A model generated the notes under the pieces. The model had not been told where the DNA came from. It made no database searches and saw only the letters and a list, made by a program, of their open reading frames with translations. A DNA stretch of 38,938 nucleotides from a virus. Taxonomy: Duplodnaviria; Caudoviricetes. Shown one piece after another: positions 1 to 18,632 of the stretch; the stretch's first letter is position 1, and each line of letters opens with the position of its first letter. A program made the position numbers and the translations under genes. Location of the stretch: positions 1 to 38,938 of the IMG/VR virus record IMGVR_UViG_3300033076_001279, one strand, 5' to 3'.

Positions 1-69
1 GATGGCTACGAAAGGGCTTAGATTATTTGAAAGAATAGTTTAAGCCTTTTCTTTTTAATAGCGTTGGAA
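1..69. repeat. attC-like site 1 (partial, right part only)
   Basis: GATGGCTACG...AGCCTTTTCTTTTTAA-TAGC-GTTGGAA; closely resembles site 2. Confidence 0.8.
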
Positions 70-186
70 CTCAAAGATATTTTTTTACCCACGCTAATAT
101 GATGTCCGCAAGCCAAAAAAGTTGATTATTTACTTTCGGTTTTGATTGCTTTTGATTATATTGTATCATAATCAAATGAGTTTAAA

Positions 187-873
187 ATGCCAATAAGTAA
201 AGTAGAAAATATTGATTGCATCGAGGGAATGAAGCAATTTCCTGATAAATTTTTTGATTTGGCTATTTGCGACCCACCTTATGGAAACGAATCTTCCTAT
301 AACAATAGAAGGAAGTTAAAACCATATGAAAATATTGAGCCTTTACCAGAATATTACTATGAATTATTTAGGATTTCAAAACATCAAATTATTTGGGGTG
401 CAAATTATCTAAGAAATTATGATTTAAAAGGAGGCGGTATTGTTTGGAATAAATTAGGGACTTATACAGAACATAGAAAGCAAGCTCCTACTATTGGGGA
501 CTGTGAATATGCTTTTACCTCTAAAACAAATAATATAAAAATGTTTTCTTATGCTTGGATGGGAAATGTTTTAGGGAATAATTATACAATAAATCCACCT
601 GAATCAAAAGAAAAATTTCATCCAAGTCAAAAACCTATTGCATTATATATTTGGCTACTCGAAAACTACGCAAAGCAAGGCGATAAAATACTTGACACAC
701 ATTTAGGCAGTCAATCGAGCCGAATAGCAGCATACAAGAAAGGCTTTGATTTTTGGGGCTTTGAAATCGACAAAGATTATTTCGAGGAAGGGAACGAAAG
801 GTTTGAAAAATCAATAGCGATGCCTTTGTTTGATAGTATCCGTCCGCAAATGCAGCAACTATCCCTTGTATAA
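187..873 (+). CDS. N6-adenine/N4-cytosine DNA methyltransferase (beta class)
   Basis: DPPY catalytic motif N-terminal, HPSQKP, LDTHLGSQSS SAM-binding motif C-terminal. Confidence 0.92.
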   Translation: MPISKVENIDCIEGMKQFPDKFFDLAICDPPYGNESSYNNRRKLKPYENIEPLPEYYYELFRISKHQIIWGANYLRNYDLKGGGIVWNKLGTYTEHRKQAPTIGDCEYAFTSKTNNIKMFSYAWMGNVLGNNYTINPPESKEKFHPSQKPIALYIWLLENYAKQGDKILDTHLGSQSSRIAAYKKGFDFWGFEIDKDYFEEGNERFEKSIAMPLFDSIRPQMQQLSLV

Positions 874-875
874 AC

Positions 876-963
876 TTCCAACTTTCAGCAAAATGATGGC
901 TACGGAATAAGGCTAAAACTTTGAAATATAGGTTTTAGCCTTTTCTTTTTGCGAACGTTGGAT
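876..963. repeat. attC-like site 2
   Basis: TTCCAAC-TTTCA-GCAAAATG...CTTTTTGC-GAAC-GTTGGAT. Confidence 0.85.
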
Positions 964-1074
964 GTTAAAGGTGCTTGCATTTTTCGCATTAACTTTGTCG
1001 CAAAATAAGTAAGAAAACCTATGGAAATGTCAGAAAAATTTACTATTTTGTAGTATAAATCAAACACTACAAAA

Positions 1075-1914
1075 ATGGTAATTTTAGATTTATTTAGTGG
1101 TATTGGTGGATTTTCAAAAGGGTTAATTGATGCAGGATTTCAATTTGAAACACATTATTTTTCTGAAATTGATAAACACGCAATAGCTAATTATTCTTAC
1201 AATTTTAAAAATTCACATTATGTCGGTTCAGTTACAAATGTTCGAGGAACAGAACTCAAAAGACCAAATATTATCACTTTCGGAAGCCCTTGCCAAGACT
1301 TCTCAATGGCTGGAAAACGATTGGGGATGGAAGGAGAAAGAAGTAGCCTTATCCTTGAAGCAATTAGACTTATATCCGAGTGCAGACCTGACGTATTTAT
1401 CTGGGAAAATGTTAAAGGAACATTCTCCTCAAATGATGGTGCAGACTTTATCGCAATACTCCAAGCCTTTGCCAACATTGGGGGTTATAGAATTGAATGG
1501 CAATTGCTTAATACAGCATGGGTTTTACCCCAAAATAGAGAGCGATTGTACCTTGTTGGACATCTTGCAGGAAGAAGTAAGCTCGGAGTATTTCCTATCG
1601 GAACAGAAAATAGAAAATATCAAGAATTGGAAATCGAGAGAAAACCCACTTTCTCATGTCTTACACGTAGGGGAGCAGGAGAATACCATTCAGGTATGCA
1701 ACTTATTAGAATAAAGAACAAATTAAGAGTTCCAACTGAAATTGAATGTGAAAAAGCACAAGGATTTCCAGAGAATTGGACTAAATATGGCATTAATAGT
1801 GCAGGTATTTATGAAATACCAAGAGTAGAAAGATATAAAATGTTAGGAAATTCAGTAACTACCAAAATAGTAGAATTAGTTGGAAACGGAATTAGAAATT
1901 GCCTTGAAACCTAA
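1075..1914 (+). CDS. C5-cytosine DNA methyltransferase (large/alpha polypeptide)
   Basis: DLFSGIGG (motif I), GSPCQDFS (IV), WENVKG (VI), PQNRERLY (VIII), LGNSV (X). Confidence 0.95.
   Translation: MVILDLFSGIGGFSKGLIDAGFQFETHYFSEIDKHAIANYSYNFKNSHYVGSVTNVRGTELKRPNIITFGSPCQDFSMAGKRLGMEGERSSLILEAIRLISECRPDVFIWENVKGTFSSNDGADFIAILQAFANIGGYRIEWQLLNTAWVLPQNRERLYLVGHLAGRSKLGVFPIGTENRKYQELEIERKPTFSCLTRRGAGEYHSGMQLIRIKNKLRVPTEIECEKAQGFPENWTKYGINSAGIYEIPRVERYKMLGNSVTTKIVELVGNGIRNCLET
1220..1714 (+). CDS. Nested +1-frame ORF, probable beta polypeptide of the C5 methyltransferase
   Basis: 164 codons open in AT-rich DNA inside the MTase gene; CTLLDILQEEVSSEYFLS resembles the motif of M.EcoHK31I-type alternative-frame subunits. 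Confidence 0.65.
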   Translation: MSVQLQMFEEQNSKDQILSLSEALAKTSQWLENDWGWKEKEVALSLKQLDLYPSADLTYLSGKMLKEHSPQMMVQTLSQYSKPLPTLGVIELNGNCLIQHGFYPKIESDCTLLDILQEEVSSEYFLSEQKIENIKNWKSRENPLSHVLHVGEQENTIQVCNLLE

Positions 1915-1915
1915 C

Positions 1916-2002
1916 TTCCAACTTATAGCAAAAAGATGGCTTATACCATATTTCCGAAATCAGGAAAATGGTTTTAGCCTTTACTTTTTGCGTGCGTTGG
2001 AC
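1916..2002. repeat. attC-like site 3
   Basis: TTCCAAC-TTATA-GCAAAAAG...CTTTTTGC-GTGC-GTTGGAC. Confidence 0.85.
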
Positions 2003-2090
2003 GACAAATTAACTAAAAATACCTCGCTAATTTCTTGTCCAAGTGATGCAAATTGACTAAATTATGGCATAATCAAACAATAAAAATAAA

Positions 2091-2276
2091 ATGACTGGAA
2101 AAGAAATGATAAAAATAATTCAAGATAATGGTCTTGAAGACTTTAAAATAAAAATCAATAAACTTGTTTCAAGAGATGGGAATTGGAGCTTTAATTTAGA
2201 GTCTTATTTTTTAGACTCAATGGTTGATATAGGGCATTCTGATAGAACGGTAACTTTTGATTTAATTGACGATTAA
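2091..2276 (+). CDS. Hypothetical cassette protein
   Basis: ORF with A-rich leader inside cassette 3. Confidence 0.7.
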   Translation: MTGKEMIKIIQDNGLEDFKIKINKLVSRDGNWSFNLESYFLDSMVDIGHSDRTVTFDLIDD

Positions 2277-2277
2277 T

Positions 2278-2454
2278 ATGGAAAACAGAAAATTTACAGA
2301 AGAAGACTTTCACGCTGTTGGATGGCATTTTGAAGCGTATTTTATAGAAGTTCTCAATAAAGAATATGATTTAGAAGACGCAATAAACGATTTACGTGGG
2401 CTTATTGGCTCAAAGTATGATTCAAGGGTAATTCAAGAATCATCGAATAAGTAA
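2278..2454 (+). CDS. Hypothetical cassette protein (start probably ATG 2278)
   Basis: Starts 1 nt after the previous stop; its own stop abuts site 4. Confidence 0.7.
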   Translation: MENRKFTEEDFHAVGWHFEAYFIEVLNKEYDLEDAINDLRGLIGSKYDSRVIQESSNK

Positions 2455-2455
2455 C

Positions 2456-2542
2456 TTCCAACTTTTAGTAAAAAGATGCTTGGTTTTAAAGTATCTTTTT
2501 GCTAAATTAGGTATTAACATTTACTTTTTACGAGCGTTGGAA
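2456..2542. repeat. attC-like site 4
   Basis: TTCCAAC-TTTTA-GTAAAAAG...CTTTTTAC-GAGC-GTTGGAA. Confidence 0.85.
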
Positions 2543-2600
2543 TCAAAGCACTTTGAAGTATCAAAGTGAGTTGATGTCCGCAAACCAATAAAATAAAAAT

Positions 2601-2927
2601 ATGCTAATTAAAGAAGCTACTTACGAAAATGTAATGGTTGAAACAAGAAAAAGAGTTTCAGATGATGTTTTTGGCTGTGATTGTTGTGAAAAAGAAATAA
2701 AAGAGTATCCAAACGAAAACAGTAGATTAGAGCTTACTGTTTTTAAAGGCAATTCTGATGATGCTGAACACTTGCACTTTTGCTCGTGGGAGTGTGTTTT
2801 GAAACAACTTCCTAAAATAAAAACTGATTATTTTATAAGTTTACCCTTTGTTTATTTTGATGAAAAATGTGAAGATAAACGTTCAGGAAATGAATTAATA
2901 TCTTTGCTGAAAAGATTGAAGATATAG
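2601..2927 (+). CDS. Hypothetical cassette protein, possible Zn-binding (CDCC...FCSWEC)
   Basis: Paired Cys motifs reminiscent of TRASH/treble-clef fingers; fills cassette 4. Confidence 0.7.
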   Translation: MLIKEATYENVMVETRKRVSDDVFGCDCCEKEIKEYPNENSRLELTVFKGNSDDAEHLHFCSWECVLKQLPKIKTDYFISLPFVYFDEKCEDKRSGNELISLLKRLKI

Positions 2928-2930
2928 CAC

Positions 2931-3009
2931 TTCCAACGCCTTGATGGGCGATGGAATAGTGATTTTTGACAAAAAATAGGCTTTCATTTACGCCTATCTA
3001 ATGTTGGAA
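2931..3009. repeat. attC-like site 5
   Basis: TTCCAAC-GCCTT-GATGGGCG...CGCCTATC-TAAT-GTTGGAA. Confidence 0.85.
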
Positions 3010-3057
3010 CTCAAACAAATTTTAAATTACAAAAGCGACTGAAAGTCGCACGACATT

Positions 3058-3300
3058 ATGAAAGAACAAGTTTTTTTTTGTGCCGCACATGGAAAAAATG
3101 TTGGCGAAAGAGTAACAATAACAGGCTCATCAGTTAATCAAGTAAAGGGTAAGCTACGAAAAAGTTTTATAGAAGGAATTATCATTGGCGGTGGCACAAT
3201 TTGGGAAAAACACGAGAAGGGTCTTGGATGGCATAAAAGCGTTGCAAGTTGGAGTCCACGCACAAAAACAACTCTGAAAGCTAAGCATATTTTAGAGTAG
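3058..3300 (+). CDS. Hypothetical basic cassette protein
   Basis: ORF fills cassette 5. Confidence 0.7.
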   Translation: MKEQVFFCAAHGKNVGERVTITGSSVNQVKGKLRKSFIEGIIIGGGTIWEKHEKGLGWHKSVASWSPRTKTTLKAKHILE

Positions 3301-3305
3301 AAAAT

Positions 3306-3392
3306 TTCCAACCAAAAGCATTATGAAGATTGGAAAATAATGCTTATATTAGATAAGAAATAACAAACTTTTACTTAATGCGAGCGTTGGAA
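3306..3392. repeat. attC-like site 6
   Basis: TTCCAAC-CAAAA-GCATTATG...CTTAATGC-GAGC-GTTGGAA. Confidence 0.85.
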
Positions 3393-3451
3393 TCAAAGCA
3401 CTTTGAAGTATCAGAGTGAGTTGATGTCCGCAAACCAAAACAAATAAAACT

Positions 3452-3811
3452 ATGAGAATAGAATTAGAGAAAATACCTGTAAAAAATGAGGGAGGAACAA
3501 ACAATATAACTTGTAATTTGATTGAATTAGGGTTAGAAAGTTTAAACCCATATTTTCATGTTACAATCATTTTAAATAACGAATTATATCAAACAATTAG
3601 AAAAGTGTATCCGCCAGATGATTATATAATTGGAGCAAATGAAGTTGATTTCTTTGTTAATAATGATATTCTAAATAACTGTTTAGTTGTAATTCAAAAT
3701 TTGAACTTACCACACAAAATTGAAAATTTTGTTACAACTTATAAAATATTTGAGTTTGGAGATATTACGGAGTTTATTAAAACAATAGGGGTAAAAGCAA
3801 CAAAAATATAA
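3452..3811 (+). CDS. Hypothetical cassette protein
   Basis: ORF fills cassette 6. Confidence 0.75.
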   Translation: MRIELEKIPVKNEGGTNNITCNLIELGLESLNPYFHVTIILNNELYQTIRKVYPPDDYIIGANEVDFFVNNDILNNCLVVIQNLNLPHKIENFVTTYKIFEFGDITEFIKTIGVKATKI

Positions 3812-3834
3812 TAAATGTTTAGCGAATAAGCAAC

Positions 3835-3920
3835 TTCCAACTAAAAGCATTGAGAAGTTTTGAAATAAAATATCTTTTTGCTATATTGTTTAATACATTT
3901 TCTTAATGCGAGCGTTGGAA
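3835..3920. repeat. attC-like site 7
   Basis: TTCCAAC-TAAAA-GCATTGAG...CTTAATGC-GAGC-GTTGGAA. Confidence 0.85.
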
Positions 3921-3962
3921 TACAAATATTTTTAAATTATTTTTCTAATATGATGTCGCAAA

Positions 3963-4394
3963 ATGAATATACTTAACAGATTACCTAAATGGCAAATTGA
4001 AAAGGTGCTTAATCAGCCAAATTGTGATATAGATTTGGATTTTTTAGGATTTTTAGATATTTATGAAACGCTATCAAAAATAATTCCTAAATATTTCACA
4101 GTTGTTGATTTAGGGTGTGCATACAATCCGCAGTGTTTCTTTTTTGAAGAACATAAATCATATTTGGCTGTTGATATATCTGATTGCGTGAAATTTCAAG
4201 CAAAAAATTGTGAAATTTTTCAAAAAAGCATAAGTGAATTTATTAATGAAAATTTAAGTAATTTGAATTTAGAAGAAACATTTGCTATATGCAGTTATGT
4301 GCCATCTTGGGGTGGAGATAATGGAAAAATAGCAAGAGATACATTTAAAAATGTTTTTGTATATTATCCATCATCAACTCGTGAAATATCGTAG
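3963..4394 (+). CDS. Small SAM-dependent methyltransferase-fold protein
   Basis: VVDLGCAY (motif I-like) followed by YLAVDIS (motif II-like). Confidence 0.6.
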   Translation: MNILNRLPKWQIEKVLNQPNCDIDLDFLGFLDIYETLSKIIPKYFTVVDLGCAYNPQCFFFEEHKSYLAVDISDCVKFQAKNCEIFQKSISEFINENLSNLNLEETFAICSYVPSWGGDNGKIARDTFKNVFVYYPSSTREIS

Positions 4395-4403
4395 AATAAG
4401 CAC

Positions 4404-4489
4404 TTCCAACCAAATTGATTCTGATGGCTTGGTAGTGATTTATGATTTGAAAAAAAAGTTTTAGCCTTTTCAGAATCATGACGTTGGAA
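4404..4489. repeat. attC-like site 8
   Basis: TTCCAAC-CAAAT-TGATTCTG...CAGAATCA-TGAC-GTTGGAA. Confidence 0.85.
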
Positions 4490-4605
4490 GGCAAGGGAAT
4501 TTCTTTACTCCAACGCTGTATAAATGTCGCCAAATAAATTTATGTAAATGCTTGACTATTAGGTGATTAATTAGTATTTTTAGGTATTACTAAATTTAAT
4601 TTTAA

Positions 4606-5298
4606 ATGATAAAATCTAATAATCTACTGCATGGAGATTGCTTTTTAGCAATAAAAGAAATAGAAGACAATAGTGTTGATTTAATTGTTACTGACCCCCC
4701 ATACGGAATAAACTTTACCAAAGGTTATAAAAGTGGCTCAACAGAATTAGTTCATGGTGATGATGGGTTTTCGGTAATGGTTTTTGTTGATGAGTTGATG
4801 AAAGAGTTTAAAAGGGTTTTAAGACCTGATAGTGCAATTTATATTTTTACACGTTTTGACGTAATGCCGTATTGGTGGTTAAAAATAAAGAATTATTTTG
4901 ACACAAAAAATCAAATAGTATGGTTTAAAGGCGGCGGTGGAATGGGAGATTTGACTGGAAATTTTTCTTTTAATTATGAAAGTATAATGTTTGCTACAAA
5001 TGGAAAACATAAAATAAGAGGGAAAAGAGATGGTTCAGTTTGGCAAATTGGCAAATGCAAGCAAGAATACCATGAAACACAAAAACCCGTTGAATTAATT
5101 GAAAAAATCATAAAACATAGCACAGACGAAGGAATGACAGTCTTTGACCCCTTTATGGGAAGCGGCACAACTGGGGTAGCTTGCAAAAATTTGAATAGGA
5201 ATTTTATTGGAATTGAAATGATAGAATCTAATTTTAATATTGCAAAAAAAAGAATAGAATCTCATTGTCCGCAAGTAAATTTATTGTCCCTTGTGTAA
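4606..5298 (+). CDS. N6-adenine/N4-cytosine DNA methyltransferase (beta class)
   Basis: VTDPPY, HETQKP, FDPFMGSGTTG. Confidence 0.95.
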   Translation: MIKSNNLLHGDCFLAIKEIEDNSVDLIVTDPPYGINFTKGYKSGSTELVHGDDGFSVMVFVDELMKEFKRVLRPDSAIYIFTRFDVMPYWWLKIKNYFDTKNQIVWFKGGGGMGDLTGNFSFNYESIMFATNGKHKIRGKRDGSVWQIGKCKQEYHETQKPVELIEKIIKHSTDEGMTVFDPFMGSGTTGVACKNLNRNFIGIEMIESNFNIAKKRIESHCPQVNLLSLV

Positions 5299-5300
5299 AC

Positions 5301-5388
5301 TTCCAACTAAAAGCATTGAGATGGTTGGGTTTTAGAGTTAATTTATTGATTTACAATTACTTACCTTTTCTTAATGCGGATGTTGGAA
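5301..5388. repeat. attC-like site 9
   Basis: TTCCAAC-TAAAA-GCATTGAG...CTTAATGC-GGAT-GTTGGAA. Confidence 0.85.
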
Positions 5389-5476
5389 CGCTAAGGAGTT
5401 AGAAAAAACCTCGCTAATTTCTTGTCCAAGTGATAAAAATTGACTAAATTATTAGCATAATTCAAACACAAAAACT

Positions 5477-5779
5477 ATGGAAATCAATCATGCCCCTCAA
5501 ATTGTTTCATTTGCTCATATTGACCCTAATACAAAAGATTTATATACTTATTACTTCCAAATAACCAAAGGGAAAATATGGCTTCATTCTATTGATAAAT
5601 GGGAGAAAAATGGAAGGACTGGAAATGGTTACAAACATGAAGAAGTTTTTCATTTTGAATATAAAAATACAATTACAAATTATGAAACAGGGGAATTTGA
5701 ACAGCCCAAAGTTCCTGAATATTTAATGAATAATGCAAAACTATTTTTTATTGGTTACGTGGCAAATAATTGTATATAA
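5477..5779 (+). CDS. Hypothetical cassette protein
   Basis: ORF with AAAACTATG start context in cassette 9. Confidence 0.75.
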   Translation: MEINHAPQIVSFAHIDPNTKDLYTYYFQITKGKIWLHSIDKWEKNGRTGNGYKHEEVFHFEYKNTITNYETGEFEQPKVPEYLMNNAKLFFIGYVANNCI

Positions 5780-5787
5780 ATAAACCT

Positions 5788-6006
5788 ATGAGTAAAATGA
5801 AAAAAGTAATTTGCTATATATTTGGGCATAAAGAAGAAGATTTTACAGATTCTGGCTATATGATTTGTAAAAGATGTAAATGTCACGAATATTATGACGG
5901 TTGGGGAATTGGTATTTTTGCATCTATTTGGCAAAGAATAAAACGAAAAATTGGAAGGATAAAAGATGAAATTTACTATCAAATTTTTAATGAATTGCCG
6001 TTTTAA
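5788..6006 (+). CDS. Small hypothetical protein with C..GH...CxRC motif (DUF1660-like); start uncertain
   Basis: ICYIFGHK...ICKRC pattern typical of small phage Zn-binding proteins; stop just before site 10. Confidence 0.65.
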   Translation: MSKMKKVICYIFGHKEEDFTDSGYMICKRCKCHEYYDGWGIGIFASIWQRIKRKIGRIKDEIYYQIFNELPF

Positions 6007-6010
6007 GCAC

Positions 6011-6089
6011 TTCCAACTTTGGCATTTGAGATGCCGAAGTATTTTAAAACTTAAAATTGCGTAGCGTTTGCTTAAATGCTATGTTGGAA
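6011..6089. repeat. attC-like site 10
   Basis: TTCCAAC-TTTGG-CATTTGAG...CTTAAATG-CTAT-GTTGGAA. Confidence 0.85.
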
Positions 6090-6148
6090 GATGCGGAACT
6101 TTCAAATCCGCTCTAATCAAATGTCTCTGAGAACCAAAAAACAAGAAT

Positions 6149-6373
6149 ATGATTTTATTGCAATTTGATAGAATGAAAGAATTTGTTGAAACAATGCAGC
6201 CTTTCATTGAAAAATATAGAAGCGAATATCATAAAAACGTATTTGAAATTGATAGCACTGTTTGCTACGATGAATATGAATTGTACGAATATTTACATAA
6301 TAATGGAGAAATTACAGAAAAATTTGAATTTGCTTTACATTTTTCTGAATTTGGGCATATAATCAAACATTAG
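6149..6373 (+). CDS. Hypothetical cassette protein
   Basis: ORF fills cassette 10. Confidence 0.7.
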   Translation: MILLQFDRMKEFVETMQPFIEKYRSEYHKNVFEIDSTVCYDEYELYEYLHNNGEITEKFEFALHFSEFGHIIKH

Positions 6374-6385
6374 CGTAGAACAATT

Positions 6386-6473
6386 TTCCAACTCATAGTA
6401 ATGAGATGGCTTTGGTTAAAAGTTGAATTAAATGGTTGTGGTTTCGAGCCTTTTCTTATTACGGATGTTGGAA
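6386..6473. repeat. attC-like site 11
   Basis: TTCCAAC-TCATA-GTAATGAG...CTTATTAC-GGAT-GTTGGAA. Confidence 0.85.
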
Positions 6474-6664
6474 CACAAGTTTAGATTGCAAACTCGCTGA
6501 ACAAACGTCCAAGTGATGAATGAGTCACAAACCAAACAAACTGCCGAGTAGTAAAATTATTGAAATGTTGGTCGCATTCTTTGTAACTACTCGCCAATTT
6601 GCTGTCGGTTTGATGCTTGCACCCTTTGAATAAGTCCAAAGGGAGTGCTTGTCGAAATGATTTG
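6474..6664. ncRNA. ORF-less structured cassette, candidate ncRNA
   Basis: No + strand ORF; nested stems CAAACC/GGTTTG and CGAGTAGT/ACTACTCG, then hairpin GCACCCTTTG/CAAAGGGAGTGC. Confidence 0.45.
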
Positions 6665-6715
6665 TCCAACTACATAAACGACAATCTAAATTAGTTAAAA
6701 CTTTTTAAATTGTCA
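6665..6715 (-). other. Candidate attI-like primary recombination site
   Basis: Array ends with a lone TCCAAC core lacking a GTTGGA partner, followed by TACATAAAC and the inverted repeat GACAATCTAAA...TTTAAATTGTC. Confidence 0.5.
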
Positions 6716-6718
6716 AGT

Positions 6719-7234
6719 TTATGTTTTCTTTTTTTTCAGACTCGAATAGGGTTGATTTACTTTTAGATTCATTAGAGAATCTTGTAAAAATTGCACTTTA
6801 CATTTTAGCTTTTGCTGCTCTACTTTCAGTTTCTGTATTTCTTCTGAGTTTTGCTTGGTGGATAATACATTTTGTAAAAACGTGTATATAGCAATAAATG
6901 AACCTATGAGTATTGTAATATTTTTAACCCAAAACTCAAAGGTTATTTTAAATTTTTCCCATCCTTCTTTTAAATATTTTTCCGACTTATATGAGTTTAC
7001 CCCTTCTTCTAAAAGTCCAATTGTATCTGGATTGTTGTTTCTTTTATATAAGACTTCGCTTGAAGATTCTAATTCATAAACAGTTTTTTTTATTAAAGGT
7101 ACTTCATAAGACAAGATATTTGATAGCTCTTTCAATGAATATAAATCATGGCTATTAAATCGCTCTTTTGGCATTTTCCAAAGAGCTTCTAATATTTTGT
7201 GTTTAATTCTATATTTTTGAGGTATTATTTTCAT
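6719..7234 (-). CDS. Hypothetical protein: wHTH-like N-terminus, one TM segment, coiled coil (start probably ATG 7234)
   Basis: Hydrophobic ITILIGSFIAIYTFL followed by a heptad-rich tail. Confidence 0.65.
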   Translation of the reverse strand: MKIIPQKYRIKHKILEALWKMPKERFNSHDLYSLKELSNILSYEVPLIKKTVYELESSSEVLYKRNNNPDTIGLLEEGVNSYKSEKYLKEGWEKFKITFEFWVKNITILIGSFIAIYTFLQNVLSTKQNSEEIQKLKVEQQKLKCKVQFLQDSLMNLKVNQPYSSLKKKKT

Positions 7235-7256
7235 TTTTCCAACGTACAAAAACACT

Positions 7257-7289
7257 ACTTCGGTTAAATGTATTAACCGAAGTTTTTTT
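7257..7289. terminator. Intrinsic terminator, probably bidirectional
   Basis: ACTTCGGTTAA-ATGTA-TTAACCGAAGT with T-rich tails on both strands. Confidence 0.75.
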
Positions 7290-7666
7290 TATAGCTGACT
7301 TTCAAAATAAAATACTCCATTGAACGGCTTATCAACTGTTATATCAAATAGTTGAGAAATTTTTTTCATGTATTCAATGCGTTTCAATGCTTTATTAGAT
7401 TTGGTTGTTTTGGGCAATTTAGCCAGCCGAATGTGAAAAGTTTTCATATATTCTCGAAACTGTTCTAAATCTTTTCCTCGTTTGTAATGATTGATAATTG
7501 AAATACATGGGATAAGATTATAAAACTCATCAGCATTGCCTTCTACATATTTTTGCTTAAATCTATATTGTGGCATGACGTGGTCTATTTGCCAATCATT
7601 GCCTAAAATTTGCCCTGTGTAAGCACAACGACCGCCAAATCTTGTTTGTACTTGTTCTCTTTTCAT
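7289..7666 (-). CDS. HNH endonuclease-family protein
   Basis: GRCAYTG...WQIDHVMP...NLIPC...INHYK. Confidence 0.85.
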   Translation of the reverse strand: MKREQVQTRFGGRCAYTGQILGNDWQIDHVMPQYRFKQKYVEGNADEFYNLIPCISIINHYKRGKDLEQFREYMKTFHIRLAKLPKTTKSNKALKRIEYMKKISQLFDITVDKPFNGVFYFESQL

Positions 7667-7702
7667 TTAGCTTCTATTTTTTGTACTTCAATAGAATTAA
7701 TA

Positions 7703-7915
7703 TTAATCGCATAATTCAAGTTCACTCGCTTTAAATTCATTACATACGCCATCTTTTATTTTTAAACCCCATTGAAACTCTCCATCTTCAATGTCTTTTA
7801 TACTTTTTGCCCTCCATAATTCACATGGCTGTTTAAATATATGACTACAATTCACAGAATCTTTTGCTTTAATTTTTGTGCCAATTGGCAATTTTAATAA
7901 ATCAGTAGGTTTCAT
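7703..7915 (-). CDS. Hypothetical protein
   Basis: ORF in operon context. Confidence 0.65.
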   Translation of the reverse strand: MKPTDLLKLPIGTKIKAKDSVNCSHIFKQPCELWRAKSIKDIEDGEFQWGLKIKDGVCNEFKASELELCD

Positions 7916-7936
7916 ATTATTTTTTATTTCAAATTA

Positions 7937-8842
7937 TTAAAAATCTTTCAATAAATCAATATTAACGTTTCTTTTTGCACACTTGGTATAAAGCATGGTA
8001 GTTGATAAGTCAGCGTGTCCGAGAAGTTCGCTAATCTTATCAATTGATGTATCATTGTTAAGTAAATGAGTAGCAAATGAATGTCGAAGCGTGTGGATAC
8101 ACCCTTTTGATTTTATCCCAGCCTTTTCTTTTGCTTTGTGAAATTCTGTTTCGGCTGTTCTTCCTGATAATTGCTTACCTTGCTTGTTTTGAAAAATAAA
8201 CTCATTTGATTCAACTTCTATTCCTTCAAAATACTTTCTATAATAATCAGTAAGTGTTGAGAGAACTAATTTCGGAAGCATTACATAACGCTGTTTACAG
8301 CCTTTGCCTTTCTGAACAAACAACTTCATATCGTGTCGGTTAATATCGCAAAATCTTAAATTACATATTTCGTTTAATCTTAAACCGCAACCGTAGGCAA
8401 ACATAAAGAATAGCATATATTTTAGGCTCTCTGTTGTGTTCAAAATATTTTTCACATCATCTACACTAAAAATCTTTGGTAATGGCTTAGAACGTATAAA
8501 ATTAAGTCTTTTCAAGAACTCATTATTTTCTCCGATAAAATCAAGATACTTAATTAATGCTGCTCTGATTTGAAATTTACGTGCCGAGCCTAAATCTTTT
8601 TTTAGCCAATAATATGCGTTTACAGACGTTGAATTTATTTGAGCGTTGTGTTTATCGTTTACAAATAGATAAACGTTTTTGATGTCAGAAATATATGTTG
8701 TAATAGTTTTCTGTGAATGATTGCAAATGACTAAACGCTTTTCAAACTGTTCAATATTGTGTTTTTGTTCATCAGTCAAATTTTTTAGTTTTTTAACTGG
8801 GCTTTTTTTGTACGATGGTATGATGGCTGTGTATGTGTACAT
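7937..8842 (-). CDS. Tyrosine recombinase, IntI/XerD-like; candidate cassette integrase
   Basis: LPKIFS, YGCGLRLNE (R), GKGCKQR (K), HTLRHSFATHLL (HxxR), LLGH, TTMLY (Y); short SAM-like N-terminus; no IntI-specific insertion. Confidence 0.92.
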   Translation of the reverse strand: MYTYTAIIPSYKKSPVKKLKNLTDEQKHNIEQFEKRLVICNHSQKTITTYISDIKNVYLFVNDKHNAQINSTSVNAYYWLKKDLGSARKFQIRAALIKYLDFIGENNEFLKRLNFIRSKPLPKIFSVDDVKNILNTTESLKYMLFFMFAYGCGLRLNEICNLRFCDINRHDMKLFVQKGKGCKQRYVMLPKLVLSTLTDYYRKYFEGIEVESNEFIFQNKQGKQLSGRTAETEFHKAKEKAGIKSKGCIHTLRHSFATHLLNNDTSIDKISELLGHADLSTTMLYTKCAKRNVNIDLLKDF

Positions 8843-9606: not shown

Positions 9607-9865
9607 GTTCTAATAATTGGTTTAAAATTTCTAAATATCCTACTGTATCAGTTAGGTTATCTCTTTTGTGTTTATACTTTTCACGTCCTAATTTGACTGA
9701 TAATAGGACTTTGCAAATTTCTGATGGCTTTAAAGTTATTCCGTACATAACACGTAGTATGATTGAATAATCATCAAATGCAACAATTGGATTATTATAT
9801 TGAACATCTCTATCGCCATTTACTATTTTATCAGCTTCTAATAGTATTGATGTTTGTTCTTGCAT
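9569..9865 (-). CDS. DUF6378-like phage protein
   Basis: ILLEADKIVNGDRDVQY...KLGR...DNLTDTVGY pattern. Confidence 0.75.
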   Translation of the reverse strand: MQEQTSILLEADKIVNGDRDVQYNNPIVAFDDYSIILRVMYGITLKPSEICKVLLSVKLGREKYKHKRDNLTDTVGYLEILNQLLEHEARIILPTQTK

Positions 9866-10577
9866 CTAAGTAATTTTTGTTTTTCTCAATCATATCATAA
9901 TAATCTTTTGCAAGTTTGTTTAGATATTTTCGAGCTTCATTAACTGAATTTTGAATTGTTAGTATGCAAGTTTCAAATAATTCAACATCAAATACTTTAA
10001 AACGGCATTCCATTGGAATATGAGAATAAGAAAATTTTTTTCTTAGTTCTTCAAGTGCTTCTTGATACTCTACTGAATCATTTGAAGTAAATTTACCTTG
10101 CCAAAAAAGTTTCATTTCTTCATCAGCAAGTAATGTATCAGGCATATCTGCAAGAATATAAAATAAACGCCCTTTTTCTCGATTGAGAAGGTACAAATAC
10201 CCTTTTATTTGCCATTCATATTCCCATGTTAAATGAGCCTTCCCAAACGTAAATAAATCGTAAGCATTTTTGATGTCATAAACGTAATCTTCCATAATTA
10301 CGTCAGGTTCGCCATGGATAAATTCATTTCTAAAACGCTCACGATTTTTTGCTACAAATCGGTCTTTGTAAAAGATTTTTTGAAGGAAATCACGACCGTC
10401 TTGTTCACAAATAATACCTTTTTCAAAGTATTTTGAAATAATTTCTTTTTGTATTTTATAGATTTCTCCTACAAACAAATCATTCAAATATGTTTTATTT
10501 TGGTCAGTTAATTTTCCTGATTTAGAAACTATTTTACCAAGAGCCGAACATCGAAATTGATAATTATCAAAAATCAT
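9831..10577 (-). CDS. YqaJ/lambda-type recombination exonuclease
   Basis: FRCSALG, KGIICE, GEPD...DIK, YEWQIKGY; adjacent to RecT. Confidence 0.85.
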   Translation of the reverse strand: MIFDNYQFRCSALGKIVSKSGKLTDQNKTYLNDLFVGEIYKIQKEIISKYFEKGIICEQDGRDFLQKIFYKDRFVAKNRERFRNEFIHGEPDVIMEDYVYDIKNAYDLFTFGKAHLTWEYEWQIKGYLYLLNREKGRLFYILADMPDTLLADEEMKLFWQGKFTSNDSVEYQEALEELRKKFSYSHIPMECRFKVFDVELFETCILTIQNSVNEARKYLNKLAKDYYDMIEKNKNYLDARTNINTIRS

Positions 10578-11449
10578 AATTGAGAAAGTTTTGCTTCATA
10601 GTAATCACGTAATCCCAAATCATTAACACTGCCTTCAACATCTTTTAATTGTTGCTTTGTAGTGGCTGAATCAATAAATTGTTTACAACGCTCAATTTCT
10701 TTTTCGAGTGCAATTTCATCGGCTGTTACTGGCTCATTGTCAATATATTGCACTTCAAGTGTATCACTATTTTTTATTACAGATTGGTCTGCAATTACAG
10801 CAGTTTGCATATCGACTGAAAGAATACCAAATTTTGATAATAGCATTTTTATTACTGTTTTCTTTGCCATGCTATCAAAATCATCTTGCCATAAACCAAA
10901 GCCCTTTTTATAAGTTTGGGAAAACTTTTTGCCATGTTTTTCAAGTTCTTCTTTACTCATGTATATAGACTTTCTGAATCCGTTTAAAAGTTCTATATAT
11001 GCTACGTAGCCAATAACTGGCCGTTCAATTCTTTCATTACGTGGTTGCCATTTGAATTGAATTTCTCCACTTAAAAAGTCCTCATATTCAATTTCATCTT
11101 CACGTACATCTGTAACGTTTATTGTTTTGTACTGTCCAGAACGTTGAGCAAGTTGAATGTAGGCTTTGTAGCCTAATTGAAATTGTGCCAATTGTTTACC
11201 ACTTTTTCGGTCATTAAAAGGCACTATATAAGCCAAACCGAGCGAGTTATTCAATGGTAAATCAAGAGTAGCAGCAGTAGCGGCAGCAGTATAAACACTT
11301 TGTGGGTCTGCGTTTCGTAGCATATCATTTGAATTAACAATCTGTAAAACAGACGTAATAAATGATGCAGAACGTTTTCCAAGTAGTTGTCCGAACTTTT
11401 CTTGTACATTTTTTTGTGCAAAAAAGTCTTTTGTAGTAAGATTTGACAT
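10574..11449 (-). CDS. recT: RecT-family single-strand annealing protein
   Basis: LGLAYIVPF, AQFQLGYKAYIQLAQRSGQY, MAKKTVIKMLLSK. Confidence 0.93.
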   Translation of the reverse strand: MSNLTTKDFFAQKNVQEKFGQLLGKRSASFITSVLQIVNSNDMLRNADPQSVYTAAATAATLDLPLNNSLGLAYIVPFNDRKSGKQLAQFQLGYKAYIQLAQRSGQYKTINVTDVREDEIEYEDFLSGEIQFKWQPRNERIERPVIGYVAYIELLNGFRKSIYMSKEELEKHGKKFSQTYKKGFGLWQDDFDSMAKKTVIKMLLSKFGILSVDMQTAVIADQSVIKNSDTLEVQYIDNEPVTADEIALEKEIERCKQFIDSATTKQQLKDVEGSVNDLGLRDYYEAKLSQL

Positions 11450-17288: not shown

Positions 17289-18632
17289 ATGAAAACACTT
17301 GCAATCATTCGAAAAATGACAGCTATCTCTGTAACCTATCGTTTCCGCCGCTCTCGTGGCAAAAATGAAAATCAAGGGCATATTCAAGTTTGCATCAAAA
17401 TTAAAGACTTTGATTATTCCCCCCTTACTTACAAACACAATGTAGAAAAATCGGTATGGGATGCAATTAATGAACCTAAAAAAGCAAAATCGAAAGAAAT
17501 TCAATTCAAAAGTATTGAGCTAAAAAAGGAGCTTGACGAATTTGTAAATACCATTCGTGCGACTTATGTTTTACTTTCTAATCAGGAACAAGAAATAATA
17601 ACAGCACATGACCTTGTTTATTATAACACAAAAACATCCGAAATTCAAAAGAAAAAAATTGAAGTTAGTAATTTATCATCTTTGATTGATGATTTTATTG
17701 AAAAAAATAAAGAAAAAGTTTTAGATAAAATTGTTCCTTTTAAGATTAAAAATAAGATTACAAAAGGAACATTCAGAAACTACAAAAAATACCAGCAAAA
17801 AATAAATGATTATCTATCTTATTCAAAACAAAAATATGTTTCAATACATAATGTAGATTTATTATTTATTGAAGGATTAGAAAAGTATTTAGACGCTAAA
17901 TATAGCACTTCATACACTGCAAAAATTATAAAATTTGTAATACAAATAATGGATTATGCAGTTAATTGTCGATATGTAAAAGTTAATTACTTGAACAATT
18001 ATAAAACTTTTTCAGGCATTCCAAGTGAGCCTTTTAATATTCCAGAAGAGGATATTAATAAGATAGAATTTTATCAATTTTATGATTCAGTAGAAAGGAG
18101 GTACGTTAATGCTTGGTTATTAGCTCGTGAACTTGCTTTACACTTTATTGATTATGCAGATTTGAAAAATGAAAACATTAATTTGAAAGATTTTTATGAA
18201 ATTGAAAATATGCAAAAAGTTTTTCATTTCGACCAAATACCAATCAAGAAAAAACAAAAAGTTTATGCTTTTCAAAAGGTTAGAGTAAAATCAAAAATAT
18301 TTCAAAACTCAATATTTACACCTCGTGCCGTAAGAATGTTTGAATATTTTGATAAAAATGTATTAATGATGCCTTTGAATGGCAAATATTCATCAATAAC
18401 CTCATTTTCTAAAATATTACGCCCAGCATTGCAAAAGGCACTTAATAGTGATGTTAATTATGTATTTTCTCATGCAAGGGATTCGATGATTTATCATCTT
18501 CTTCGTATGAAATCGCACGACCGTTTTATCATGGCAATAGCAGGGTGGCGTTCACTCGATGAATTACACAGATACGCTCGTGTTGATAATCAAATTCTTT
18601 TTGATTCAAAATATTACTCAAAAAGTGCTTGA
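17289..18632 (+). CDS. int: Phage integrase (Bacteroidota arm-binding + SAM-like + catalytic domains), divergent active site
   Basis: N-terminal beta-rich arm-binding-like region, ITKGTFRNY, C-terminal SHARDS..AGW..RY. Confidence 0.8.
   Translation: MKTLAIIRKMTAISVTYRFRRSRGKNENQGHIQVCIKIKDFDYSPLTYKHNVEKSVWDAINEPKKAKSKEIQFKSIELKKELDEFVNTIRATYVLLSNQEQEIITAHDLVYYNTKTSEIQKKKIEVSNLSSLIDDFIEKNKEKVLDKIVPFKIKNKITKGTFRNYKKYQQKINDYLSYSKQKYVSIHNVDLLFIEGLEKYLDAKYSTSYTAKIIKFVIQIMDYAVNCRYVKVNYLNNYKTFSGIPSEPFNIPEEDINKIEFYQFYDSVERRYVNAWLLARELALHFIDYADLKNENINLKDFYEIENMQKVFHFDQIPIKKKQKVYAFQKVRVKSKIFQNSIFTPRAVRMFEYFDKNVLMMPLNGKYSSITSFSKILRPALQKALNSDVNYVFSHARDSMIYHLLRMKSHDRFIMAIAGWRSLDELHRYARVDNQILFDSKYYSKSA

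What the first reader, a model, noticed from the sequence alone, without database searches (positions are those of the whole stretch)
2021..5468. Unrelated genes share near-identical cassette leaders and tails
Seen: AATCAAAGCACTTTGAAGTATCA(A/G)AGTGAGTTGATGTCCGCAAACCAA precedes unrelated ORFs at 2541 and 3391 and is itself a hairpin. ACCTCGCTAATTTCTTGTCCAAGTGAT...AATTGACTAAATTAT...GCATAAT recurs at 2021 and 5408, and in part near 6492. CTAATATGATGTC occurs in cassettes 1 and 7. GAATAAG(C/T)A(A)C precedes TTCCAAC at sites 4, 7 and 8. Inference: new ORFs are dropped into a reusable cassette frame, which bears on the open question of how cassettes are made. The phage's RecT/exonuclease pair could recombine such short homologies.
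Basis: partly seen in the sequence, partly recalled or inferred. Interest (0 to 1): 0.75.

Follow-up and report, generated by a model that had tools for sequence, protein, structure and literature searches.

The report
Swappable frames build phage gene cassettes
In this phage and in related bacterial chromosomes, unrelated genes sit in near-identical non-coding frames attached to integron-like hairpin sites, and near-identical genes also turn up in different frames, so the frames are likely interchangeable parts and may be a route by which new gene cassettes are made.

Summary
The repeats are real: 65/69 and 55/60 nt identical, in front of unrelated ORFs. They belong to an integron-like array (11 hairpin sites, Xer-type integrase lacking the IntI insertion) whose sites also fill Emticicia/Spirosomaceae chromosomes. 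The mobile unit runs from TTCCAAC to TTCCAAC (17 near-exact host copies). Host genes point towards their site; the phage genes are inverted. So the 'leaders' are shortened forms of the 180-350-nt modular flank that follows the stop codon in host cassettes. A GTC lies 32-37 nt from the site in 104/105 cases. Frames are swapped both ways: one leader precedes at least five ORF starts, and three near-identical ORF pairs sit in different or patchwork frames. Cassette 4's gene has a 63% homologue in an ordinary phage operon, and one host gene lies inside a gene-less frame. Swapping among existing cassettes is therefore shown by comparison; capture of outside genes is inferred. The enzyme is unknown: RecT was not found in five other array phages, and junctions do not cluster at GTC. 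The scan found this system, and refilled frames, earlier on other DNA; nine literature searches found no description.

The parts
1..69 (.). site 0, attC-like hairpin cut by the contig end
70..186 (+). leader 1 (GTC 104-106)
187..873 (+). cassette 1 ORF, N6/N4 DNA methyltransferase; depth 5.3 against about 33 for its neighbours in run X1
876..963 (.). site 1
964..1074 (+). leader 2 (GTC 997)
1075..1914 (+). cassette 2 ORF, C5 DNA methyltransferase
1916..2002 (.). site 2
2003..2090 (+). leader B copy 1 (GTC 2037; Bacteroidota-type promoter-like motif)
2091..2454 (+). cassette 3: two small unknown ORFs
2456..2542 (.). site 3
2543..2600 (+). leader A copy 1 (hairpin; GTC 2576)
2601..2927 (+). cassette 4 ORF, 108 aa; 63% homologue outside any cassette in L098
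2931..3009 (.). site 4
3010..3300 (+). leader 5 (small hairpin on GTC 3045) and 80-aa ORF from 3058
3306..3392 (.). site 5
3393..3451 (+). leader A copy 2 (GTC 3426)
3452..3811 (+). cassette 6 ORF, 119 aa, no homologue found
3835..3920 (.). site 6
3921..4394 (+). leader 7 (GTC 3955) and 143-aa ORF from 3963; unit 3835-4402 found at about 95% identity with other flanks in run X2
4404..4489 (.). site 7
4490..5298 (+). leader 8 (GTC 4526, promoter-like motif) and N6/N4 methyltransferase from 4606
5301..5388 (.). site 8; up to 96.6% identical over the whole site to sites in host-type arrays
5389..5476 (+). leader B copy 2 (GTC 5424)
5477..6006 (+). cassette 9: two small ORFs
6011..6089 (.). site 9
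6090..6373 (+). leader 10 (GTC 6123; shared with an IMG/VR phage and a host-array cassette) and 74-aa ORF from 6149
6386..6723 (.). site 10 (6386-6473) plus full host-type modular tail; 93% identical over 339 nt to chromosomal locus L036
6719..7234 (-). cassette 11 ORF, 171 aa, host-type orientation, starting 2 nt after minus-strand GTTGGAA
7237..7243 (-). lone GTTGGAA core, array end; candidate insertion site that lacks the host attI-like consensus
7937..8842 (-). Xer-type tyrosine recombinase, catalytic R/K/HxxR/H/Y motifs present, IntI insertion absent
9831..11449 (-). exonuclease and RecT; candidate, untested, for frame swaps

Best explanation
The shared leaders are the site-side flank of integron-like cassettes, a non-coding frame found in front of unrelated genes, and recombination between cassettes likely swaps this frame from gene to gene and likely also brings new genes in. 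Step 1 (shown by exact copies): site, flank and gene move as one unit bounded at TTCCAAC/GTTGGAA; the neighbouring Xer-type integrase is the likely mover. Step 2 (shown): phage leaders belong to the same module family as the long tails of host cassettes, with the gene inverted. The long ones likely supply a promoter, and the A-rich end likely supplies the translation start. Step 3 (pattern shown, enzyme inferred): frames and genes are exchanged independently, at shared modules of about 35 nt in hosts and at the A-rich run before ATG in phages. This fits relaxed homologous recombination by RecA or any phage annealing protein. Step 4 (inferred): the same reaction with a gene outside an array, or insertion into a gene-less frame, makes a new cassette.
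For: Units: 17 of the 21 unit pairs sharing the gene-side end are whole copies at >=98.9% from TTCCAAC to TTCCAAC; flanks checked and different for one pair; window unit 3835-4402 has other flanks in run X2. Orientation: 153 of 177 host cassettes have minus-strand ORFs, 58 of 59 phage-type cassettes plus-strand. GTC at +32 to +37 in 104 of 105 sites found without GTC in the pattern; background about 5%. Same frame, new gene: leader A precedes two ORFs here and three more visible ATG starts in runs X2 and X4; in G001, module-1 families of 9, 7, 6 and 5 cassettes have 2 homologous ORF pairs of 82. Same gene, new frame: G001:112909 vs L016 (98% over 1918 nt, different site and tail, junction in a shared terminal module); G001:477 vs G005:3336 (module patchwork); two IMG/VR phages (ORF 86% aa, junction at ATG). 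Outside source: L098, 63%, in an operon with a Shine-Dalgarno-like sequence and no site. Gene inside an empty frame: L015. In 3 of 5 host genomes the best relative of the phage integrase lies at an array on the same contig; in a fourth it heads a second array.
Against: No recombination was observed; all evidence is comparative and from assemblies (G001 is a MAG; runs X1-X4 are contigs, and X1 is probably the source sample). Phage junctions offer only low-complexity A-rich microhomology. Only 1 strong and 1 weak case of 223 show a gene inside an empty frame. Leaders 1, 2 and 5 match host tails no better than shuffles, and leader 4 only marginally. Leader A and B patterns had no exact match in IMG/VR. 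Five other array phages show no integrase match, two of them complete. How the 3' junction is placed 0-10 nt after the stop codon is not explained.
Confidence: 0.58

Rival explanations
1. Frames are only reshuffled among genes that were already cassettes (duplication of a unit, then a deletion or crossover joining leader n to gene n+k). New genes enter by another, unseen route.
For: All three nucleotide-level swap cases keep the gene-side end, so the gene was already a cassette. Exact duplicates are common (17 pairs).
Against: The cassette 4 gene has a free 63% homologue and is bounded closely at ATG and stop; L015 has frame sequence on both sides of a gene.
Confidence: 0.2
2. The phage's own RecT/exonuclease pair makes the swaps.
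For: The pair lies 3.4 kb from the last site; two of five other array phages carry Erf or a Rad52-like protein. Such proteins tolerate short, imperfect homology (recalled, not from a call).
Against: RecT was found in 0 of 5 other array phages, and none of four annealing-protein families in the 2 complete ones; host chromosomes show the same swaps.
Confidence: 0.1
3. The integrase itself recombines at the GTC modules, which act as secondary attI-like sites where genes are joined.
For: GTC lies at a fixed distance; CGC-N9-GTC resembles the spacing of the host insertion-site consensus TCGT(C/A)-N9-GTT.
Against: Shared blocks end within 12 nt of a GTC in 19 of 151 host and 9 of 46 plus-strand (phage-type) cases, against about 20% by chance.
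Confidence: 0.07
4. Cassettes are made through an RNA copy or a group IIC-attC intron.
For: Tight ATG-to-stop boundaries; the intron route is proposed in print (passage in PMC7923331).
Against: No RT among 54 window proteins scanned; the same frames hold genes in both orientations, which a route tied to transcript polarity would not predict.
Confidence: 0.04
5. Simple duplication of whole genes followed by divergence (paralogues).
For: Cassettes 1 and 8 are distant paralogous methyltransferases with similar 3' ends (35 of 48 nt).
Against: No similarity between the ORFs behind leaders A or B while the leaders are 92-94% identical.
Confidence: 0.01

Closest known systems
Sedentary chromosomal integrons (IntI, attI, attC cassettes; CALINs)
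   Same: Tandem single-gene units bounded by imperfect hairpins with a GTT core; tyrosine recombinase at the array head; host genes start just after GTT; gene-less cassettes occur (as in Vibrio, abstract of 10.1101/2023.11.21.568050).
   Different: Integrase lacks the IntI insertion and is below the TIGR02249 cut-off; core GTTGGAA; a 180-350-nt modular tail precedes each host site; carried by a phage with inverted genes; frames exchanged between unrelated genes. IntegronFinder 2.0 names Salinibacter as its Bacteroidetes case of a complete integron (passage, PMC9024848).
PeSL regulatory cassettes of T4-type phages (abstract, PMC2839356)
   Same: Repeated non-coding regulatory blocks before unrelated accessory genes; recombination between blocks shuffles genes.
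   Different: PeSLs are sigma70 promoter plus terminator units with no site-specific hairpin site or integrase and no counterpart in host arrays.
attG insertion and delta-attI cassettes (passages, 10.1101/2022.09.11.507474; PMC12901181)
   Same: Non-canonical junctions create unusual cassettes.
   Different: Those are IntI reactions at GWT; here junctions lie at shared modules or at ATG and do not cluster at the GTC triplet.

Membership tests
Integron | IntI integrase with its additional domain | tested here: not met
   TIGR02249 138.7 bits against a cut-off of 265; about 37 aa missing against VchIntIA 2A3V; host integrases 186-193 bits
Integron | attC-type imperfect palindromes with AAC/GTT cores | tested here: met
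   10 complete sites of 79-88 nt with paired cores and inner stems; core deviates from the GTTRRRY consensus (recalled) at position 7; no attC model was available, Rfam gave no match
Integron | Cassettes move as units cut at the GTT core | tested here: met
   17 whole-unit copies bounded at TTCCAAC; unit 7 in run X2
Integron | attI beside the integrase | tested here: inconclusive
   five host loci have a lone TCGT(C/A)-N9-GTTGGAA; the window's lone core at 7237 lacks it
Integron | Gene followed by its attC, ATG just after GTT | tested here: not met
   10 of 11 window cassettes are inverted; met for cassette 11 and 153 of 177 host cassettes
Integron | Bottom-strand single-stranded recombination; Pc promoter | not testable with these tools
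   needs assays
PeSL-type regulatory cassette | Promoter plus terminator stem-loop repeated before accessory genes | tested here: inconclusive
   leader B has a promoter-like motif but no hairpin; leader A is a hairpin and too short for the promoter scan
Group IIC-attC intron route | Intron RT in or near the array | tested here: not met
   no RT family among 54 window proteins; host arrays were not scanned for introns

The most novel reading that the evidence does not exclude
Bacteroidota arrays keep gene-less cassettes built of roughly 50-bp GTC modules as acceptor frames. Any gene recombined into one, in either orientation, becomes a mobile cassette, and phages use trimmed frames that also supply promoter and start context: a DNA-level route of cassette genesis, shared by phage and host.
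Probability: 0.35. Interest if true: 0.87.

Novelty: new variant of a known kind. Interest (0 to 1): 0.66.

Why it matters
How gene cassettes arise is still named as an open question (passages in PMC12901181 and PMC8618304). Here the non-coding frame is long enough to track, so junctions between frame and gene can be read at base level. Two named isolate genomes (Emticicia aquatilis, Emticicia sp. SJ17W-69) carry the arrays, which makes the question testable. It also points to an integron-like system in Cytophagales, shared with phages, that IntI-based scans would likely miss.

Tried and rejected
Exact leader patterns and a first site pattern in IMG/VR: 0 hits. Integrase and cassette 7 protein in IMG/VR: none. 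Cassettes 4 and 7 in GenBank phages: none; cassette 8 only distant; cassette 6 has no homologue. Junctions at GTC: rejected. Pairing of the site end with the GTC window: no better than shuffles, p 0.25. Gene-less frames as structured RNA: z from -2.0 to 1.5 for six cassettes; no Rfam match. Module motif near phage gene 3' ends: weak, 9 of 60, p 0.03. ECF-type promoter reading of GTC: the upstream motif spacing does not fit recalled consensus spacing; not tested further. No RNA holder listed. Of the 26 loci, 9 repeated contigs already held, about 5 new records looked like true arrays and were kept, and the rest were treated as chance matches and left out of counts. PMC10013915 (passages) was irrelevant.
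Full report
Setting. The window is a siphophage contig (terminase, portal, capsid, tape measure). Bases 1-6473 hold 11 hairpin sites TTCCAAC...GTTGGA(N) of 79-88 nt (one cut by the contig end) that separate ten plus-strand cassettes: three DNA methyltransferases and small unknown ORFs. A 301-aa tyrosine recombinase lies at 7937-8842 (minus). It keeps the catalytic motifs, scores 138.7 against a cut-off of 265 for TIGR02249 and lacks about 37 aa present in VchIntIA.

Observation. Every item of the finding is present. Leader A copies are 65/69 identical through the ATG and leader B copies 55/60, z 28 and 22 against shuffles. Leader A folds (z -5.8, -3.2); B does not. The ORFs behind them are unrelated, and so are their hairpin sites (60/96 and 57/95 columns). 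So site, leader and gene are each mosaic.

Relatives. A degenerate site pattern found 3 IMG/VR contigs, 27 metagenome loci and 17 genome loci, all titled Emticicia, Spirosomataceae, Arcicella or Cytophagaceae. One Emticicia contig has 87 site calls in 160 kb (a few overlap). Window site 8 is up to 96.6% identical over its whole length to sites in host-type arrays, and 6386-6723 is 93% identical to a chromosomal locus. A Spirosomaceae host is therefore likely. The closest relative of the phage integrase (32-37% identity) lies at an array in G001, G003 and G005 and heads a second array in G004; in G002 it is not near a site.

Direction and unit. In hosts 153 of 177 cassettes have minus-strand ORFs, mostly starting 7-70 nt after minus-strand GTTGGAA; 58 of 59 phage-type cassettes are plus-strand (automatic call by ORF length). 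Of 21 unit pairs that share the gene-side end, 17 are whole copies at >=98.9% from TTCCAAC to TTCCAAC (flanks compared for one). The site on the left travels with leader and gene. Run X2 holds window unit 3835-4402 with other flanks. The integron direction is therefore the minus strand, the phage genes are inverted, and the 'leader' is the flank that in host cassettes lies between stop codon and site. Window cassette 11 (6386-7243) is a host-type cassette, and G001:157126 is a phage-type cassette in a host array, so exchange likely runs both ways.

The frame. A GTC lies 32-37 nt from the site in 104 of 105 distinct sites found without GTC in the pattern; background is about 5%. Consensus: C-G-C, 9 nt, GTC(G/C)C. 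Host tails are mostly 180-350 nt of such modules at about 45-55-nt spacing, and 11 of 177 host cassettes of 250-700 nt have no ORF of 70 aa. The first GTC sits in a small perfect hairpin in 17 of 52 phage and 18 of 47 host leaders (null about 1). A TTG-N19-21-TAnnTT motif (Bacteroidota promoter consensus, recalled) occurs in 14 of 32 long phage leaders including B and 8 (null 1.2). The first 45 nt of window leaders 3, 7, 8, 9, 10 and marginally 4 match host tails above 25 shuffles; 1, 2 and 5 do not. What GTC does is unexplained; an accessory integrase-binding site is my guess.

Same frame, other gene. Leader A also precedes three other ATG starts in runs X2 and X4, and further unknown sequence in X1 (contigs only, X1 probably the source sample). 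In G001 the four largest module-1 families (9, 7, 6, 5 cassettes) contain 2 homologous ORF pairs of 82.

Same gene, other frame. G001:112909 and L016:6001 share 98% over 1918 nt but have different sites and tails, joined in a terminal module of about 35 nt common to both frames. G001:477 and G005:3336 differ module by module around a 99% identical gene region. Two IMG/VR phages carry one ORF (86% aa) with the same 3' end and unrelated site and leader, the junction at the ATG. X2 has a joint from leader 2 into the promoter region of cassette 1.

Entry of new genes. The cassette 4 protein has 9 homologues. Of 9 IMG/VR loci found I read four; L098 (63%) and L099 (41%) lie in ordinary operons with Shine-Dalgarno-like sequences and no site. 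One host cassette (L015) has frame tail, a 262-aa gene with its own upstream region, then 190 nt matching the far end of a gene-less cassette; 1 further weak case among 223. Phage 3' ends are enriched for a short CG-containing motif (18 of 59, controls 0-5) and AAC/CAC before the core (23 of 59 against 15 of 153 in hosts); several gene-less frames end similarly. Capture is therefore plausible but thinly shown.

Enzyme. Junctions do not cluster at GTC (19 of 151 host, 9 of 46 plus-strand cassettes, null 20%), which speaks against integrase crossover there. RecT is absent from five other array phages; Erf and a Rad52-like protein occur in one each; the two complete genomes show none of four families and no integrase match. 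Relaxed homologous recombination by whichever enzyme is at hand fits best; this is inference.

Literature. Searches; none listed a description of these arrays or frames (open-access library only; no supplements read). Seen as passages: PMC9024848, PMC12901181, 10.1101/2022.09.11.507474, PMC8618304, PMC8352920, PMC7923331, PMC10013915. Seen as abstract: PMC2839356, 10.1101/2023.11.21.568050. Earlier notes of this scan describe phage arrays with inverted genes and, in a bacterium, refilled frames; these are unchecked AI notes on other DNA, not independent support.

Verdict. It works like an integron but fails two defining features. Frame reuse is real and two-way; capture of outside genes is likely but not shown. 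New variant of a known kind, interest 0.66.

Noticed in passing
window 108-810: Cassette 1 has depth 5.3 in run X1 against about 33 for its neighbours, and the main contig carries 435 other letters left of 876. Either a minority variant with its boundary exactly at the site, or an assembly join; no listed contig covers 810-876.
   Followed up: partly
window 836-882 and 5261-5307: The two distant methyltransferases (20% aa) end in similar DNA (35 of 48 nt) with GTCCGCAA 34 nt before the core; cassette 1 ends in QLSLV, like a clamp-binding motif (recalled).
   Followed up: partly
window 7237-7290: Lone core followed by a palindrome (7252-7283) at the end of the HNH gene; terminator or insertion-site candidate.
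   Followed up: partly
window 7703-7915: The 70-aa ORF between HNH and integrase is missing in a relative in run X2 (joint 7666 to 7928).
   Followed up: no
L039 7354-8520; L053 18551-19686: Host array integrases are about 390 aa, with an N-terminal extension of about 100 aa that the phage enzyme lacks.
   Followed up: no
L016 6407-8212: The 601-aa ORF caught in a frame swap begins like a defence-type reverse transcriptase (recalled resemblance, not tested); host arrays also hold methyltransferase cassettes in inverted orientation.
   Followed up: no
L036 8001-8339: A single isolated site with tail in a Spirosomataceae chromosome, far from any integrase match, resembling a lone inserted cassette.
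   Followed up: partly
window 17289-18632: Second, divergent 447-aa integrase-like gene (PF13102), the likely prophage integrase.
   Followed up: no
L086 and L097: Two complete phage genomes carry arrays but no match to the integrase; they likely rely on the host enzyme.
   Followed up: partly
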